Source: a virus
DNA length: 64,000 bases
Reading direction: 5' to 3' (one strand)
Virus record (IMG/VR): IMGVR_UViG_3300031339_000004
Location: 1-64,000 of that record
The translations under genes were made by a program, and so were the position numbers. Below are positions 7,263 through 23,744 of the stretch, piece after piece (within the stretch, counting starts at the first letter, position 1; each line of letters starts with the position of its first letter). Below the pieces are notes generated by a model. That model was not told the DNA's origin. It saw only the letters and a program-made list of their open reading frames with translations, and did no database searches.

Positions 7263-7625
7263 TTAGATTTGTGTTAAAACTAATACGTTAGCAGTTGAAT
7301 CATCTGAGATTTCCCATTTGTAAACATTGTTGTCAAAGTCGATCACTGTTCTATTTTGTAGCTTACGAATGTTTACTGTCTGGCCTGCTTGATTAGATCC
7401 TTGTATAACCATTTCGTCATCAGCTGGCGCTGACTTATCTACTAAACGACAGCTACCTTGATTTGTTCCGTCATTGACAACGAACATAGTTTCCGAGCGT
7501 TGACTTACAATGTAGCCTTTCTCCGTTACTGCGTTTGTTCCTATTTTTACAATAACACTAAAGTTACCGTCTTCAACTCCATCTACGTTAGCACCTAGAT
7601 ATCTTTTATTAATTGGACGTCCCAT
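7263..7625 (-). CDS. Hypothetical late (probably virion) protein
   Basis: AAGGAG Shine-Dalgarno (SD), upstream ATAAATA late-promoter motif, MGRPINKRY N-terminus. Confidence 0.75.
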   Translation of the reverse strand: MGRPINKRYLGANVDGVEDGNFSVIVKIGTNAVTEKGYIVSQRSETMFVVNDGTNQGSCRLVDKSAPADDEMVIQGSNQAGQTVNIRKLQNRTVIDFDNNVYKWEISDDSTANVLVLTQI

Positions 7626-7715
7626 TTGTTTTCTCCTTGGTTACGTTCTAAGTAATACGCGGTGGGTCACTTCCGCATAAGTCCACTAGTCTAGTGGCAC
7701 GATTATAGACACAAG

Positions 7716-19070: not shown

Positions 19071-19204
19071 ATGAGAATAAATCCAAATAGTTATATAAAT
19101 GTATTTATGTTAAGAAATGAGCTAAGCTCATTAGTTTTCGCTTTACGCTCAAACTATTAGTTTCTTAAATTAATAATAGTATTTTATAAGTGATTTGAAT
19201 TATT

Positions 19205-19600
19205 GTTACTAGATATTCATGTAGATTGCTCTGGTCAGACGGAACCTGTTTAAAGGTTCCGTCTGTCTAATGAATTTACTTCATGTGAGTATTTCCAGCC
19301 AAGACATATTGGAAGCAGGTATTTGTTCACTCCACGGGCTCTGACCTTTCCCAACCTACGTCGATATAGCATTATAAAATGCCGCCTGTACTTTCGTTCC
19401 TAGATGTACAGTTTTTAGGAGTGTGCGATTTACTTGAACGCCAACAAACGTTCTATGCCAATACTTAACTCGCTTGCCTTTTCAGCTACGACGATGTCTC
19501 TCGAAGGGGAGTGTCTCAGCATGTCTCGTGTCCGGGTACCAGCCGGCTGTTTCACAGCAGTATTATAGTCCGGCCTGCTAGCCTTGTGTGTTGTTTTGAT
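19205..19600 (-). ncRNA. Candidate large structured non-coding RNA (family unidentified)
   Basis: No ORF of 60 aa or more in 19071-19718; GC-richer than its flanks; many stems including a perfect 12-bp hairpin (19236-19265); G-U pairs favour the minus strand. Confidence 0.45.
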
Positions 19601-19718
19601 GCCTAAGTGTGTATTACTTCTTGCGCTGTTCGCAACAACTAAGAAATAATCTTTGCCTGAAGATGCCTATGTTTGTGATTTGTTATTTTAGAAATAAGAT
19701 GAAGATGTAAATGCTTGC

Positions 19719-20153
19719 CTATTTTAATTTTTTGTTTTCTATTAGCGACTGTCTTAATTTTTCTGATCCGCCTACTCGAACATTGATAATACCGTTGTAA
19801 TATTCGTCAGTTTCGAGTACCTTGCGATCAAATTGCTCTTTTGCTTCAATGTAGGACATTTCTGATCTTGATTTACAAAAATAAAGTACTTCTCGAGTAA
19901 ATTGTTCTTGTCCTAGTGCCTCTACGTCAGCGTTTAATTTATCTGAAGAACCCCAATAGGTCCTCCAGTCGCTTTCTTTATAGCCTCTGCGTTTATTTTT
20001 TTTGCCTTTAAGTGGCGGCTTAGTAGTTTTAAACCTAGCCAACTTTTTGCCTATATATTTTTTGTTGGACTGAAGATTGGTAATGAGATACACAAATCCT
20101 TCATACTCGTCTGGTATCTCATCAATGTTTACGCCTTCATAGGTCCAATGCAT
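19719..20153 (-). CDS. GIY-YIG endonuclease, T4 endonuclease II (DenA)-like
   Basis: GFVYLITN...KYIGKK, ESDW..YWGSS, F.REVL..C, Y.E..EQF...VL....YYN. Confidence 0.8.
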   Translation of the reverse strand: MHWTYEGVNIDEIPDEYEGFVYLITNLQSNKKYIGKKLARFKTTKPPLKGKKNKRRGYKESDWRTYWGSSDKLNADVEALGQEQFTREVLYFCKSRSEMSYIEAKEQFDRKVLETDEYYNGIINVRVGGSEKLRQSLIENKKLK

Positions 20154-20178: not shown

Positions 20179-20430
20179 TCACTGCTGAGGTTTTGACTTA
20201 AAAACTTCTGGATGTACCTCTTGAAACTGCGCTCTTACTTCTGTGTTTCGTTGATGTGTGATTTTTTTTATTTTACGAAGCCGCTGTTGGAGATCGTAGT
20301 ACCTACGGTGGGTTCTCATTGCTTCCCACCGTTCCATTGAAGCAAAATAGTCTAGATATGCCTGTACCAGTTGTTGATGCAGGCTATCGTCAGGGTCTAA
20401 TTCTTTTTCAAACCTTTCGTCGTCGGTCAT
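20179..20430 (-). CDS. Hypothetical small helical protein
   Basis: ATGA overlap with the gp46 C-half stop codon. Confidence 0.6.
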   Translation of the reverse strand: MTDDERFEKELDPDDSLHQQLVQAYLDYFASMERWEAMRTHRRYYDLQQRLRKIKKITHQRNTEVRAQFQEVHPEVFKSKPQQ

Positions 20431-22424
20431 TGAGATGACTCCACTACATCTAAATCGTTCGCGTAAGTAGTAAATCCGTTTTCTTTAATAACTTTAAGAA
20501 CATGATTAACTCGACCGATTAGTTCGTCCTTGTGACTGATCAAAAAGATATTTTTTTCTCGTTCTCTGGCCATCTTCTTGAGTACGCTTAACGAACTCTC
20601 AACTCCTGCTGTGTCCATGCCGCTGTCTATGAGCTCATCAATGAACAGCAGGTTAACATTCTGATACAGACTCTCCCAAACGTCCCGGAAAGCAAAGCTA
20701 AGACCTAGTATAAGCCTGTTTCGTTCGCCTCGTGACAAGTTGTCAAAGTCAAGGTCTTGGCCTAATTGGGAGATCTCAACCGATAAGTCGTTTTGAAACT
20801 CAACTTGGTGAGGTAAACCTAGTTTGTCCAAGTAATGTGTAAGTCTGTTGTTCAAATACGCAAGGTTCTGGTCTATAATCTTTTTTCGTATGAAACTATC
20901 CTTGTTTGTAAGCAGCTTGAGAAGAAACTCTTGGTGCTCTCTGACGTTTGTTAGCTCGTTTACTGGCAGCCAGTTGATTTCTTGCAGTGCTGACGTCTGC
21001 AGGTCCGACACTTGCGCTTCGTAAGGATCTTCATCCTCTTGTCTTGCTGTCAGTGTGTTCTTTAGATTCTCAACGTTGCTTCTATGCTCGTATGCTTCCT
21101 TTGCACTGTCGTAGAATGTGTTGGGCTTACCGTTAAGCTCACCGATCTCTTCGATACCAGTCATTACCTTCTTTAGCTTATCTGCTACTTCTTTTTGGTA
21201 GCTAGTAGCATCAGCTAGTTCTTTTTCTTTAACCTTCTGGATCTCATCCTTCTTATCTGCGTGTAATTCTTGACCGCAAGTATAACAAGTGGCATCGTCT
21301 AGTTTAGAAATGTTCTTTTTTACTTTAGTTACAGCAGTATCTGCCCGTAATAGTGCAGTATCTAGTGTGCTCCTTTCCTTGTTGAGTGCAGTAACAGCAG
21401 TATTCATCTTTGACCAGTGTTGTAACTTCTCGTGGTCGTCGAGCTCTGACTCAATATTAAGCTTTTCTAATTGATCAATGCCTTCTTGAAGCCTTTTATT
21501 GTCTTGTTTCTTTTTTGACTGCCATGCACGTTGTCTGCTGACTAATGTGGCTATACTTTGCTCAATTTTGCCGTTTGCTGTCTTAATTGCGTCTATTTTT
21601 AGTGTTTCTTCAGTAATAGAGTCTTTGGTCATGCGCACTTGTTCTTTTAACAACATGGCCTTTTCGGTGAGTATAGTAATACCCAACAACTGTTCAATGA
21701 TAGCTCGTTGATCATTAGCTCTCATTGATAAGAACGGTTCGGTATAGGTGTTGAGAGCAACAATATGCTTGAACATGTCATGACTCATGCCTAGTAGGTC
21801 ATTAATTGTCTCTTGCGTCTTGCGACTGTCACCTTGGGACTCATCTGTCATGTCTTGTTCTGCATCATCTACATAAAACTTAAGAATGTTGGGGCTTCTG
21901 CCTCTTTCTATTCTATAGTCTACGTTATTCTTCTTAAAATGCAGAGTGACCAACATGTTTTTACTGTTGGTCTTATTAATAAGGTTATTCTTCTTAATAT
22001 TAGTTAACGCTTGGCCGTACAGCGCATAGCTGAGCGCGTTGATCACTGTGGTATTATGAGATAAGATATTGTTTGAGTAAAAACGATGATCAGGGTGATC
22101 AACTGTTAGATCAAACATATTTTCTTGCCGAGACTGTTCGATTACTGTTAATACTAATTCAGAACCGTGCTTAGATATTATCTTAGTCTGGTTAGGTATT
22201 ATATCTTTGACAAAGATCTCGTTGTAGTTGTGATCAAACAAGATGTGAGTGTCGGCACAGTCAAGAGTCAACCCGCTTTGGGTTTCGATATGCCAAACGG
22301 TGTATGGAATAGTCTTGTGTATGTCAGTAACAGGCTGCCATCCAGAATCTGTTTCGATTTCAAGATCAACTAAGCTGACACTATTAACAAATTTTCTATT
22401 TACTGTTTGAGAAATTGTAGACAT
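20427..22424 (-). CDS. gp46: C-intein (aa 1-124) fused to the C-extein of recombination ATPase gp46 (Rad50/SbcC-like)
   Basis: Intein block B (LDCADTHILF), block F (MFDLTVD...FYSN) and G (LSHN|T); then zinc hook CYTC, signature LSRGE, Walker B LFIDE, H-loop LISH. Confidence 0.92.
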   Translation of the reverse strand: MSTISQTVNRKFVNSVSLVDLEIETDSGWQPVTDIHKTIPYTVWHIETQSGLTLDCADTHILFDHNYNEIFVKDIIPNQTKIISKHGSELVLTVIEQSRQENMFDLTVDHPDHRFYSNNILSHNTTVINALSYALYGQALTNIKKNNLINKTNSKNMLVTLHFKKNNVDYRIERGRSPNILKFYVDDAEQDMTDESQGDSRKTQETINDLLGMSHDMFKHIVALNTYTEPFLSMRANDQRAIIEQLLGITILTEKAMLLKEQVRMTKDSITEETLKIDAIKTANGKIEQSIATLVSRQRAWQSKKKQDNKRLQEGIDQLEKLNIESELDDHEKLQHWSKMNTAVTALNKERSTLDTALLRADTAVTKVKKNISKLDDATCYTCGQELHADKKDEIQKVKEKELADATSYQKEVADKLKKVMTGIEEIGELNGKPNTFYDSAKEAYEHRSNVENLKNTLTARQEDEDPYEAQVSDLQTSALQEINWLPVNELTNVREHQEFLLKLLTNKDSFIRKKIIDQNLAYLNNRLTHYLDKLGLPHQVEFQNDLSVEISQLGQDLDFDNLSRGERNRLILGLSFAFRDVWESLYQNVNLLFIDELIDSGMDTAGVESSLSVLKKMAREREKNIFLISHKDELIGRVNHVLKVIKENGFTTYANDLDVVESSQ

Positions 22425-23506
22425 TTCTTTAATACTTCCTCTTTGTTTTGTTTATACTCATTTTCCCATATAACTAGTACGTCGTACCCTTGGGCTTCTG
22501 CAAATTGAATTTTTTCTCGGTCCAGTTTCCATTTTTCTGATGCTCGCAGTTTAGTTCTTGGATTCACATACTCCGGAGAATAAATTTTAGGATTACAATG
22601 CCAAAAGTCTCCATTGTATTCAATTATTTTATTAGCAACTGCTATGTCATAGACGTATTGTTTTTTAGAATTGATTGCTAGAGTAAGCTGATCTATAATT
22701 AGCAAACTTTTATCAATTTTTCTGATTTCGTATATTATTTCTCTTTCAGCGGCAGATACCGATACCCCTTTTGTAAGTTTAAGTCTATTCATTTCGGCTT
22801 TTTCTTCATCTGATTTAGCATTTAATGCGGCTTGCCATTTATCTTGACGTAGTTGCCAAACTCTAATTCCTTCCTCTTTTCCGTATTTTTCAATACATAT
22901 CTTCTTAGAAAAGTGTAGTTGTTCTTTAGATACTAATTTAGTTGCTTCTTCTTTAGTATATCCTCTGGCAGTATAGTATTCTGTACACCGCTTTGATGAC
23001 ACTCGACGAACAGGAGTAGCAGCTGAACCTACTGAACCTTTTTTATTGTTTGCTGTTTTGGTATCAGCTGCGAACTGGATTGCTTCTGTTTCACAATAGC
23101 CTTTCTTTATCCAATATTCTTTTCTAATGGGCCGTCGACTATTTCTTTCAAAGTCTGCTTCCTCTATAGTATAGTGTTTATTTGTAGCAGGATTACTTTT
23201 GTTTAACCAAAACTCTCGACTGTATACGCTTGTTGTGTTTTTTTGTGCGTGTTCCTTTGATTTTGTGTAAACCATGTTGGTATCCCACCCTCGACACTCC
23301 CAATAATTTCTAGAACGTTTTGTATAGCGCCCAGAAATTTTCAAGGTACTTCTAATAAAAATCTCAATTTCTTTTTTGGTATTGTTAACATTATCCAACA
23401 CCATGCTTTCTAGGAGAGACGATCGCATCGCCGGTTCTAGATTTTTGATAACTGTATCTATTACTTCGATACAGTTTTCTGTTAGTGTGTTATTCCATCG
23501 CGCCAT
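22400..23506 (-). mobile_element. Free-standing Vsr-like (PD-(D/E)XK type) putative homing endonuclease between the split-intein halves
   Basis: C-terminal YD....KIIEYNGDFWH.NP...D.EK...A...GY.VLVIWE Vsr/DUF559-like domain; own AGGAG SD; different reading frame from both gp46 halves. Confidence 0.8.
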
Positions 23507-23744
23507 TGTATAATTCTCCTATTGTAGTTTCGTAAATTACCCCAGTTTTGGTGTTTTTTACTTTTACAATAGTATTTATACAAAGGCACTTACCTGTGCC
23601 GTTGCGCGATCCGCTGTCATCACCACCTTGGTCTAGGTTTTCACCAAGAACCAGCGTTAGTTGCTCTCTACTGAAGTCTATGGCCTGTGAAACATTGCCT
23701 ACACTCATGAAATTCTTAACTGTTAAATCCTGAACCTGTATCAT
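23490..23744 (-). CDS. gp46: gp46 N-extein (aa 1-52, ends at Walker A GTGK) fused to a 32-aa N-intein
   Basis: VKNFMSVGN...LVLGEN...NGTGK followed by intein block A CLCINTIVKV...TIGELY, then stop. Confidence 0.9.
   Translation of the reverse strand: MIQVQDLTVKNFMSVGNVSQAIDFSREQLTLVLGENLDQGGDDSGSRNGTGKCLCINTIVKVKNTKTGVIYETTIGELYNGAME
23573..23580 (-). promoter_or_regulatory. Perfect T4 late promoter TATAAATA inside the N-intein coding sequence
   Basis: TGT ATA AAT ACT (C-I-N-T) contains TATAAATA, about 67 nt upstream of the endonuclease ATG. Confidence 0.6.

What the first reader, a model, noticed from the sequence alone, without database searches (positions are those of the whole stretch)
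19205..19718. Large structured non-coding element directly downstream of a compact GIY-YIG nuclease
Seen: this is the only long gap (648 bp) in an otherwise packed 64 kb. Its ~400-nt core is GC-richer than the flanks and has many stems on the minus strand: GGCCGG/CCGGCU around GCUG-UGAAA-CAGC, CUGUAC/GUACAG (19386-19411), GCAUU/AAUGC, GUAGGU/ACCUGC enclosing GGG-AAAGGUCAGAG-CCC, and a perfect 12-bp CAGACGGAACCU/AGGUUCCGUCUG stem flanked by ACAUGAA direct repeats. G-U pairs work only on the minus strand, the same strand as the nuclease gene. I cannot match it to tRNA, tmRNA, RNase P or group I/II introns. Inference: an undescribed phage ncRNA. Speculatively it forms an RNP with the 144-aa GIY-YIG protein, which has a basic KPPLKGKKNKRRG insert and no separate DNA-binding domain; it could instead be a replication-origin transcript.
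Basis: partly seen in the sequence, partly recalled or inferred. Interest (0 to 1): 0.8.

Follow-up and report, generated by a model that had tools for sequence, protein, structure and literature searches.

The report
Twin-box knotted RNA of marine phages
The only long gene-free gap in this uncultured giant T4-like marine phage encodes a real, doubly knotted RNA of about 490 bases that is in no RNA catalogue, does not depend on the neighbouring nuclease gene, and carries one 7-letter word twice whose two copies always mutate together; what it does is still unproven.

Summary
Window 19071-19718 is by far the largest ORF-free gap, and its minus strand encodes a structured RNA at about 19111-19605.

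On 33 diverse homologues, 95.3% of cells pair and 35 of 68 pairs show changes on both sides. The covariation score is 0.362, against 0.171 in shuffles and 0.05-0.08 in slid controls. Two pseudoknots covary.

No Rfam family matches, including RF01718 (Polynucleobacter-1). Weinberg 2010 did record that motif behind homologues of this same nuclease gene, and its flanks show the same architecture.

Two ACAUGAA boxes flank an invariant-sided hairpin. The two copies are identical in 77 of 79 relatives, with about 12 joint changes on the tree.

The proposed RNA-protein complex with the GIY-YIG nuclease is not supported:
- The pairing reflects fixed gene order (gp47-gp46-small ORF-GIY-RNA).
- Small phages carry the RNA without the nuclease.
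- Four complete cultured phages carry the nuclease without the RNA.

No complementary partner word was found. My best guess, about 1 in 3 and inferred only, is a ColE1 RNA II-like primer RNA whose box 1 pairs with the template DNA under box 2.

This scan has already found the same family on other DNA, in at least 85 genomes.

The parts
19111..19605 (-). Whole RNA gene (about 490 nt): structured body, twin-box module, AU-rich linker, conserved 3' motif and terminator-like hairpin.
   Evidence: nhmmer and blastn conservation across about 165 loci. Alignments A1 and A3. Covariation.
19589..19594 (-). Pseudoknot PKa, 5' strand (ACAACA). It pairs with 19441-19446, which lies in the loop of hairpin He.
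   Evidence: 99% of cells paired; 4 of 6 pairs change on both sides (helix 1).
19555..19580 (-). Hairpin Hb (19580-19575 / 19560-19555) with a conserved GGCCRG loop.
   Evidence: 100% of cells paired; 2 pairs compensatory (helix 2).
19532..19546 (-). Hairpin Hc (19546-19542 / 19536-19532).
   Evidence: 5 of 5 pairs change on both sides (helix 3).
19455..19522 (-). Helix Hd (19522-19516 / 19461-19455), which encloses a variable insert.
   Evidence: 98% of cells paired; 3 pairs compensatory (helix 4).
19436..19453 (-). Hairpin He (19453-19449 / 19440-19436). Its loop (19446-19441) is the 3' strand of PKa.
   Evidence: 5 of 5 pairs change on both sides (helix 5).
19418..19422 (-). Pseudoknot helix Hf, 5' strand. 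It pairs with 19329-19333, which lies inside helix Hi.
   Evidence: 98% of cells paired; 5 of 5 pairs compensatory (helix 6).
19386..19411 (-). Hairpin Hg, with the invariant loop UAGGAACGAAG.
   Evidence: 4 of 5 pairs compensatory (helix 7). Loop invariant.
19366..19385 (-). Variable hairpin Hh. It is expanded to about 100 nt in many relatives.
   Evidence: Highest mutual-information pairs of the alignment. helix 8.
19315..19359 (-). Helix Hi (19359-19354 / 19320-19315). It encloses hairpin Hj (GGG-AAAGGUCAGAG-CCC, 19353-19335) and the 3' strand of Hf.
   Evidence: 100% and 98% of cells paired, mostly invariant, with compensatory UA to GC changes (helices 10 and 11).
19280..19286 (-). Box 1, ACAUGAA, preceded by a constant ACUC.
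   Evidence: Identical to box 2 in 77 of 79 relatives; 9 words in the 79 aligned relatives and 11 over all loci of the T4-like clade; parsimony gives 12 changes in box 1, 11 in box 2 and 12 jointly.
19235..19266 (-). Hairpin Hk. The 3' strand GGUUCCGUCUGAC is invariant, while the 5' strand varies through G-U pairs.
   Evidence: helix 12.
19216..19222 (-). Box 2, ACAUGAA, preceded by a constant AAUCU.
19155..19215 (-). AU-rich linker. Its composition is conserved but its sequence is not. The 150 nt after box 2 have GC 0.22, against 0.40 for the genome.
   Evidence: alignment A1.
19134..19154 (-). Conserved 3' motif GUUUGAGCGuaaAGCGAAAAC. The GUUU/AAAC closing pairs covary to GUUA/UAAC.
   Evidence: Alignment A1, columns 601-622. 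The motif is also present in L133, L142 and L245.
19112..19131 (-). Terminator-like hairpin AUGAGC-UUA-GCUCAU followed by UUUCUU.
   Evidence: Strong compensatory changes (columns 624-642). Scanner hit at 19116-19132.
19719..20153 (-). Neighbouring gene, not part of the RNA: a 144-aa SegE-type GIY-YIG nuclease (cyanophage gene cluster T4-GC 213, often mislabelled 'NAD synthetase').
   Evidence: PF19835, E 1.1e-33. Invariant Y22, Y33-I34-G35, R55, E88 and N120. Homologue of PSSM2_218.

Best explanation
Shown: the gap holds a stand-alone gene for a roughly 490-nt RNA with two pseudoknots. It belongs to a large family carried by uncultured giant T4-like water phages, estimated at about 360 kb. 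The family's marine branch is in no catalogue. The RNA is not a partner of the GIY-YIG nuclease, which is only a fixed neighbour.

Inferred, about 1 in 3: the RNA acts in cis as a primer or origin transcript, in the manner of ColE1 RNA II.
1. The folded body presents box 1 as a single strand.
2. When RNA polymerase transcribes box 2, which lies 64 nt downstream across hairpin Hk, box 1 pairs with the template DNA strand under box 2.
3. This anchors a persistent RNA-DNA hybrid over the AT-rich tract that follows.
4. The 3' end of the hybrid can then prime DNA synthesis.

This reading explains why the two boxes must stay identical while the word itself is free to drift. It also explains why no complementary word exists anywhere else.
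For: The RNA is real:
- 95.3% of cells pair.
- 35 of 68 pairs change on both sides.
- The covariation score is 0.362, against 0.171 in shuffles (0 of 500 reach it) and 0.05-0.08 when partners are slid.
- Both pseudoknots covary.
- No ORF is conserved across the region.

The family is large.

The RNA is independent of the nuclease.

The boxes evolve in concert. They are identical in 77 of 79 relatives, with about 12 joint changes. Further words appear twice each in L133 (UCAUCAA), L142 (ACAGAAA), L137 (GUAUGAA) and L245 (AGCGAAA).

No partner word was found:
- None inside the RNA.
- None at a consistent place within 5 kb.
- None covarying in 35-75 kb of six contigs.

The 150 nt after box 2 have GC 0.22-0.33, against 0.36-0.40 for the genomes.

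Precedent, from established knowledge and not tested here: in ColE1 RNA II an upstream G-run pairs with the template C-run near the origin to form the persistent hybrid (Masukata and Tomizawa 1990).
Against: - Nothing shows a transcript, an R-loop or initiation here.
- A 7-nt, A/U-rich RNA-DNA contact is weak.
- A primer RNA would not obviously need a 350-nt, doubly knotted, deeply conserved body.
- In all six contigs the cumulative GC-skew minimum lies 5-7 kb upstream of the RNA, not at it.
- T4-type origins are redundant and usually poorly conserved.
- Position 6 of the box is A in every word seen, which this model does not explain.
- In many relatives a UUCG-type hairpin follows box 2, which suggests more RNA structure there and not an open hybrid.
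Confidence: 0.33

Rival explanations
1. A trans-acting RNA with two identical guides. The two single-stranded boxes base-pair with a complementary 7-8-nt word in a partner nucleic acid, either two copies at once or one at a time. The partner could be a phage or host RNA or single-stranded DNA. The body would be a scaffold or would recruit a factor.
For: The boxes evolve in concert and no complement exists inside the RNA. Both boxes sit outside all covarying helices. Both have a constant 5' frame, ACUC and AUCU.
Against: No enrichment of the complementary word, and no covarying site, was found in 35-75 kb of six contigs. Those stretches are only 10-20% of genomes of about 360 kb, so most of each genome and the host were not searched. 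Seven nucleotides give little specificity.
Confidence: 0.25
2. An ornate RNA that works through its shape. It could self-assemble as GOLLD and ROOL do, or it could bind a dimeric protein or two copies of a factor. In that case the two boxes are twin contact sites.
For: Its size, pseudoknots, invariant loops and phage habitat resemble the ornate RNAs shown to form RNA-only assemblies (PMC12286853, found). The two most conserved segments, GGUCAGA (19346-19340) and UCUGACC (19239-19233), are complementary over 7 nt, which hints at a further tertiary or intermolecular contact.
Against: There is no Rfam match to any ornate RNA. Identical, non-palindromic words are not what kissing contacts predict. 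About 12 joint word changes among close relatives would demand very fast co-evolution of a protein.
Confidence: 0.15
3. A precursor RNA. The boxes are two identical cleavage sites, and cutting at both releases the roughly 64-nt Hk unit as a small RNA. This would resemble the repeat boundaries of type III antitoxin RNAs or of CRISPR repeats. The released unit could act as a decoy against a host ribonuclease.
For: Identical words bound a unit with an invariant hairpin strand. The words are A-rich at the 3' side, and position 6 is always A.
Against: The model leaves the conserved 350-nt body unexplained. No tandem repeats and no toxin gene lie nearby. The specificity of a nuclease would have to change about 12 times within the clade.
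Confidence: 0.1
4. One reading: the RNA forms a ribonucleoprotein with the compact GIY-YIG nuclease and guides or regulates it.
For: The gene is adjacent on the same strand in 108 of 110 informative loci. The protein has intact catalytic residues and no separate DNA-binding domain.
Against: The adjacency sits inside a conserved gene order. L133- and L142-type phages have the RNA without the gene; an HNH gene lies 1.3 kb upstream and terS and terL lie downstream. Melnitz (70% identical protein), S-SRM01, P-HM1 and phiM12 have the gene but no room for the RNA beside it, and no match to the RNA model or RF01718 anywhere in their complete genomes.
Confidence: 0.04
5. A degenerate or unusual self-splicing intron, or a small mobile insertion whose target-site duplication forms the boxes.
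For: The Hf/Hi pseudoknot with an inserted hairpin recalls the P3/P7 arrangement with P7.1 of group IA introns (my reading). Nuclease genes lie nearby.
Against: There is no group I or group II match in Rfam even at E 10. The P8-like hairpin is absent in this window. No host gene is split. No 'empty site' with a single box was seen among about 142 loci. No second copy of the hairpin exists in the 77-kb record.
Confidence: 0.03

Closest known systems
Polynucleobacter-1 RNA motif (Rfam RF01718; Weinberg et al. 2010, Genome Biol 11:R31, PMC2864571)
   Same: The genomic setting is the same. The authors found the motif mostly downstream of genes related to PSSM2_218, and that gene is a homologue of this window's GIY-YIG gene. 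The 3' flanks printed in their alignment file show the same module: ACUC-AGCGAAA, a hairpin, then AAUCU-AGCGAAA. Its function is also unknown.
   Different: The RF01718 model (141 positions) finds nothing in this record at E 10. It also finds nothing in 13 divergent relatives, in L245 or in G005. It covers only a 5' portion of a freshwater branch. The twin boxes, the pseudoknots and the 3' module were not described.
ColE1 RNA II (plasmid primer RNA)
   Same: Both are long, folded, cis-encoded RNAs. In RNA II an upstream segment has the same sequence as a downstream one, so it can pair with the template DNA and fix a persistent hybrid that primes replication. This is a functional analogy that would explain why the two boxes stay identical.
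   Different: There is no sequence or structural homology. No antisense RNA I equivalent is known here. The pseudoknotted body is far more ornate. No replication data exist.
GOLLD (RF01998) and ROOL (RF03087), large ornate RNAs of phages and prophages
   Same: All are large, multi-domain, pseudoknotted phage-borne RNAs of unknown function that were found by comparative genomics.
   Different: There is no match to their models. This RNA is smaller, is not associated with tRNA genes, and the twin-box module is unique to it.
T4 Seg-type free-standing GIY-YIG endonucleases (SegE, PF19835) and cyanophage cluster T4-GC 213
   Same: The neighbouring protein matches the SegE GIY-YIG domain (E 1.1e-33) and keeps the catalytic Tyr, Arg, Glu and Asn residues.
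   Different: It has only 144 aa and no C-terminal DNA-binding domain. It is fixed in position and 70-84% identical across hundreds of contigs, unlike a sporadic homing gene.

Membership tests
Polynucleobacter-1 (RF01718) | Match to the Rfam covariance model at or above 37 bits. | tested here: not met
   There is no match at E up to 10 in the whole 77-kb record or in the gap itself. There is none in 13 relatives at the gathering score.
Polynucleobacter-1 (RF01718) | Location downstream of a GOS11034 / PSSM2_218-type gene. | tested here: met
   The paper's text states the location. PSSM2_218 is 44% identical to the window's GIY-YIG protein, E 5.6e-22.
Polynucleobacter-1 (RF01718) | Shared 3' architecture: two identical 7-nt words behind ACUC and AUCU on either side of a hairpin. 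| tested here: met
   I read this in the flanks of the authors' Stockholm file. It is also present in L245, a third branch behind a 58% identical GIY-YIG gene. It rests on architecture only, with no model-based homology.
Group I intron | Conserved core (P3-P9 with P8 and a guanosine site), a match to Rfam intron models, and interruption of a host gene. | tested here: not met
   There is no intron match at E 10. The P8-like hairpin is missing in this window. The flanking genes are complete, separate ORFs.
tRNA, tmRNA, RNase P, 6S and other catalogued RNAs | Detection by ARAGORN or by any of 4227 Rfam models. | tested here: not met
   ARAGORN found 0 genes. Only chance-level Rfam hits fall in the gap.
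Guide RNA of an RNA-guided nuclease (omega-RNA type) | Obligate co-occurrence of the RNA and its nuclease. | tested here: not met
   The RNA occurs without GIY-YIG in L133 and L142. GIY-YIG occurs without the RNA in four complete phage genomes.
RNA II-type primer / R-loop origin (works-like claim only) | An upstream RNA segment that is identical to a downstream segment, so that it can pair with the template DNA. | tested here: met
   Box 1 equals box 2 in 77 of 79 relatives, with joint changes. Whether they pair with DNA is not shown.
RNA II-type primer / R-loop origin (works-like claim only) | An AT-rich unwinding tract downstream, and a strand-composition switch at the site. | tested here: inconclusive
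   An AT-rich tract is present (GC 0.22 against 0.40). The cumulative GC-skew minimum lies 5-7 kb upstream in all six contigs, not at the RNA.
RNA II-type primer / R-loop origin (works-like claim only) | A persistent RNA-DNA hybrid and initiation of DNA synthesis at its end. | not testable with these tools
   This needs wet-lab mapping.
GIY-YIG nuclease, SegE type (the neighbouring gene) | A Pfam domain match and the catalytic residues. | tested here: met
   PF19835 scores 116.5 bits against a cut-off of 25. Y22, Y33, G35, R55, E88 and N120 are invariant in 9 homologues down to 37% identity.

The most novel reading that the evidence does not exclude
The twin-box RNA is a new kind of programmable cis element. 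An ornate folded RNA uses a freely drifting 7-nt word to re-invade its own template DNA and so founds a replication origin. Such an origin would be portable between very different phages, both giant T4-like phages and small phages with terS and terL. Alternatively, it is a two-guide RNA for an unknown partner.
Probability: 0.3. Interest if true: 0.85.

Novelty: new variant of a known kind. Interest (0 to 1): 0.66.

Why it matters
Large, deeply conserved RNAs with unknown jobs are rare. Each one solved so far (RNase P, tmRNA, riboswitches, omega-RNAs) opened a field.

This family is abundant in ocean and lake viromes. It sits in phages that cannot yet be grown, and only a third of one branch is catalogued.

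The family also offers an unusually sharp handle for experiments. It has two 7-nt words that must stay identical, so single and double box mutants should give a clean yes-or-no test of any model.

If the RNA founds an origin by pairing back to its template, it would be the first ornate RNA tied to phage DNA replication. It would also be a compact, reprogrammable replication module.

For annotation, the result removes a tempting but wrong idea, an RNA-guided GIY-YIG nuclease. It also corrects the 'NAD synthetase' label on the neighbouring gene.

Tried and rejected
- **Catalogued RNA families.** I scanned Rfam at the gathering score and at E 10 on the window, the gap and 20 relatives. Only freshwater-2 at 7623-7698 matched, and that is unrelated.
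- **RF01718.** It was searched directly and found nothing.
- **Cultured phages by DNA.** blastn of the gap and of a relative against 50,697 phage records found nothing.
- **A hidden protein gene.** No ORF is shared among homologues.
- **Thermodynamic stability.** The folding energy is not significant on either strand.
- **tRNA anticodon-loop partner for the boxes.** I considered this because position 6 is always A, which would match U33. I dropped it because words with G or U at position 2 (AGCGAAA, GUAUGAA) break the purine-37 rule, and tRNAs that read ANN codons carry A37.
- **Start codons or translational bypass.** I rejected both. AUA, AGG, AGA and AUC variants occur, and there is no upstream ORF.
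- **A complement inside the RNA.** AUGU at 19367-19364 matches only the constant half of the box and does not covary.
- **A CUGG/CCAG pairing around Hk.** It is present only in a minority of sequences.
- **An extended 30-nt duplication around the boxes.** Identity outside the box is only 11.9 positions, against 9.2 in shuffles.
- **T4 endonuclease II as a relative of the protein.** No PDB sequence match was found. I did not fold the protein.
- **Proteins next to the RNA in L133.** There are no family hits, and the Atlas gave only weak leads.
- **Bacterial genomes.** The scan gave one hit, a phage-like contig binned in a Crocinitomicaceae MAG, with GIY-YIG upstream.
- **A tool error.** One search was a mis-formed request and was repeated correctly.

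Full report
**1. What is there**

The window is part of a 77-kb IMG/VR viral record that CheckV rates 21% complete. Related contigs of 70-176 kb are rated 18-49% complete. The phage is therefore an uncultured T4-like virus of roughly 360 kb.

On the minus strand the genes around the finding run in this order:
- gp47-like nuclease.
- gp46 (SbcC-like).
- An 83-aa ORF.
- A 144-aa SegE-type GIY-YIG nuclease (19719-20153; PF19835, E 1.1e-33).
- The gap (19071-19718).
- A 229-aa ORF of unknown function.
- Baseplate-hub genes that converge from the other strand.

The gap is the largest ORF-free stretch of the window, 648 bp against 177 bp for the next largest.

**2. The gap is a conserved, non-coding, structured RNA**

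blastn and nhmmer against loci fetched through the two flanking proteins showed 70-90% identity over about 500 nt in dozens of contigs. No ORF is shared among them.

In all, 165 matches were collected, 109 of them spanning most of the element. These reduced to 78 sequences below 93% identity.

On an unbiased MAFFT alignment of 33 sequences below 80% identity, I scored my 68-pair model:

| Measure | Model | Controls |
|---|---|---|
| Cells paired | 95.3% | 84.4% shuffled; 32-45% with partners slid |
| Pairs with changes on both sides | 35 of 68 | 22.3 shuffled |
| Covariation score | 0.362 | 0.171 shuffled (0 of 500 reach it); 0.05-0.08 slid |

Two pseudoknots are individually supported:
- PKa joins 19594-19589 to the loop of hairpin He; 4 of 6 pairs are compensatory.
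- Hf (19422-19418 / 19333-19329) crosses Hi; 5 of 5 pairs are compensatory.

U-G pairs fix the strand as minus. The single-sequence folding energy is unremarkable, so the case for structure rests on comparison.

**3. Extent and anatomy**

The conserved body starts near 19605. In most relatives it abuts or overlaps the stop codon of the GIY-YIG gene. This window has about 100 extra nucleotides there, containing four AGGCA words.

After the body come, in order:
1. Box 1 (19286-19280).
2. Hairpin Hk (19266-19235). Its 3' strand GGUUCCGUCUGAC is invariant, while its 5' strand drifts through G-U pairs.
3. Box 2 (19222-19216).
4. An AU-rich linker.
5. A conserved small motif, GUUUGAGCG...GCGAAAAC (19154-19134).
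6. A covarying hairpin followed by a U-run (19131-19112), which looks like the terminator.

I found no convincing sigma-70 promoter. The RNA may be co-transcribed with the nuclease gene or use a phage promoter type that I cannot score.

**4. The twin boxes**

- In 77 of 79 non-redundant relatives the two 7-mers are identical.
- Nine words occur in that set and eleven over all loci of the T4-like clade.
- On a tree built without the box columns, parsimony needs 12 changes in box 1, 11 in box 2 and 12 for the pair. The two copies therefore change together on the same branches.
- More distant members carry other words, each present twice: GUAUGAA (L137), ACAGAAA (L142, L199), UCAUCAA (L133) and AGCGAAA (L245).
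- AGCGAAA also appears twice in the Polynucleobacter sequences printed in Weinberg's alignment file.
- Position 6 is A in every word.
- The 5' frames (ACUC and AAUCU) are constant across the T4-like clade; the more distant L133 carries a different frame.

I then looked for a complementary partner:
- There is none among the alignment columns.
- There is none at a consistent place within 5 kb.
- In six contigs with three different words there is no enrichment of the complement, and no homologous site whose sequence follows the word.
- Only 10-20% of each genome could be searched.

**5. Relation to the nuclease gene**

Of the 120 loci found through the RNA motif alone, 110 have enough upstream sequence to judge. 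In 108 of those the GIY-YIG gene lies directly upstream on the same strand. However, the whole block gp47-gp46-small ORF-GIY-RNA-229-aa ORF-baseplate hub is syntenic, so the linkage need not be functional.

The two exceptions, L133 and L142 (plus three near-copies of L142), belong to a different, small phage type.
- There the RNA lies between two unknown small ORFs and the small and large terminase genes.
- An HNH gene lies 1.3 kb upstream, and there is no GIY-YIG gene.
- My 3'-domain covariance model scores the L133 copy at E 2.8e-25.

Conversely, four complete cultured phage genomes encode the protein:

| Phage | Protein identity to the window |
|---|---|
| Methylophilales phage Melnitz | 70% |
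| Synechococcus phage S-SRM01 | 48% |
| Prochlorococcus phage P-HM1 | 43% |
| Sinorhizobium phage phiM12 | 50% |

In each of them coding genes follow directly. None has a significant match to the RNA model or to RF01718 anywhere in the genome.

The protein keeps all catalytic residues. It is the cyanophage core-like cluster T4-GC 213, usually mislabelled 'NAD synthetase'. This double dissociation argues against an RNP.

A plausible reason for a nuclease neighbour, GIY-YIG in one phage type and HNH in another, is that free-standing homing-type nucleases tend to settle beside highly conserved sequences. That is an inference.

**6. What is known**

No Rfam model matches. The scan's earlier notes pointed me to RF01718, so I tested it. 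It does not hit this record or its relatives.

The 2010 paper does state that Polynucleobacter-1 RNAs lie downstream of PSSM2_218-like genes and were absent from purified phages. I confirmed that PSSM2_218 is a homologue of this window's nuclease. I also saw the twin-box module in the flanks of the authors' alignment.

L245 is a third branch. It has the same layout behind a 58% identical GIY-YIG gene, yet neither RF01718 nor my models detect it.

The family is thus architecturally coherent but very divergent in sequence. Only part of one branch is catalogued, and no function has been proposed in the literature I could search.

**7. Mechanism**

Any model must explain two identical, freely drifting words with no visible partner.

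*Cis model (my preference).* The model that needs no unseen component is a cis RNA-DNA contact of the ColE1 RNA II kind. Box 1 of the folded RNA pairs with the template strand under box 2, fixing an R-loop over the AT-rich tract so that the RNA can prime DNA synthesis.
- For: the identity rule, the AT-rich tract and the RNA's presence in unrelated phage types.
- Against: the short, weak pairing; the over-elaborate body; further RNA structure after box 2 in relatives; and a GC-skew minimum that lies 5-7 kb upstream and not at the RNA.

I rate the cis model at about 0.33. The alternatives rate as follows:

| Model | Rating |
|---|---|
| Trans guide or sponge with an unfound partner | 0.25 |
| Shape-based assembly or twin protein site | 0.15 |
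| Processing precursor | 0.10 |
| Intron or insertion remnant | 0.03 |

That the RNA itself is real I rate above 0.95.

**8. Verdict**

Follow-up agents of this scan reported the same family before on other DNA, in at least 85 genomes. My results agree with theirs on the twin boxes and on independence from the nuclease. They differ in that RF01718 does not cover this marine branch.

Noticed in passing
window 20427-23744 (minus strand): gp46 (SbcC-like) is a fractured gene. ORF 23490-23744 encodes the N-terminus up to the P-loop (...NGTGK) and then the start of an intein (CLCINT...). ORF 20427-22424 begins with an intein C-part (...NILSHN) and is followed by TTVINALSYALYG and the rest of gp46. 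Between them lies a free-standing 368-aa ORF (22400-23506) with a weak, sub-threshold DUF559 / Vsr-like match at its C-terminus (E 0.0028, 18 bits against a cut-off of 20.6). Relatives have an unbroken 590-aa gp46.
   Followed up: partly
window 7623-7698 (minus strand): A freshwater-2 RNA (RF02980) scores 57.8 bits, above its gathering score of 49.9. It lies in the second-largest gap and ends at an AUG with a Shine-Dalgarno-like AAGGAG.
   Followed up: no
window about 25470, and the homologous places in G001-G005: On the RNA's strand, the cumulative GC-skew minimum lies 5-7 kb upstream of the RNA in all six contigs examined, just upstream of gp47, with no change of gene orientation. It could mark a replication-related switch or only a change in gene composition.
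   Followed up: partly
window 19346-19340 and 19239-19233: Two invariant segments are perfectly complementary over 7 nt: GGUCAGA in the Hj loop and UCUGACC at the 3' foot of Hk. This is a possible third long-range contact, or an alternative to the poorly conserved lower part of Hk. It cannot be tested by covariation because neither segment varies.
   Followed up: partly
window 19606-19721: The word AGGCA occurs four times between the nuclease stop codon and the RNA body. Relatives and L245 show similar AGGC repeats at the same place. It may be a promoter, a processing site or a protein-binding element.
   Followed up: no
L245:1690-2200 and window 19154-19134: L245 is a sequence-divergent third branch of the family, behind a 58% identical GIY-YIG gene. 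Its twin-box word is AGCGAAA. The same word sits in the conserved 3' motif (UAGCGAAAAC or AAGCGAAAAC) of this window's clade.
   Followed up: partly
L133:5023-8645, and L142 with its near-copies L242-L244: In a small, non-T4 phage type the RNA lies directly upstream of the small and large terminase genes. That is where cos or pac sites usually lie. An HNH endonuclease gene is 1.3 kb upstream.
   Followed up: partly
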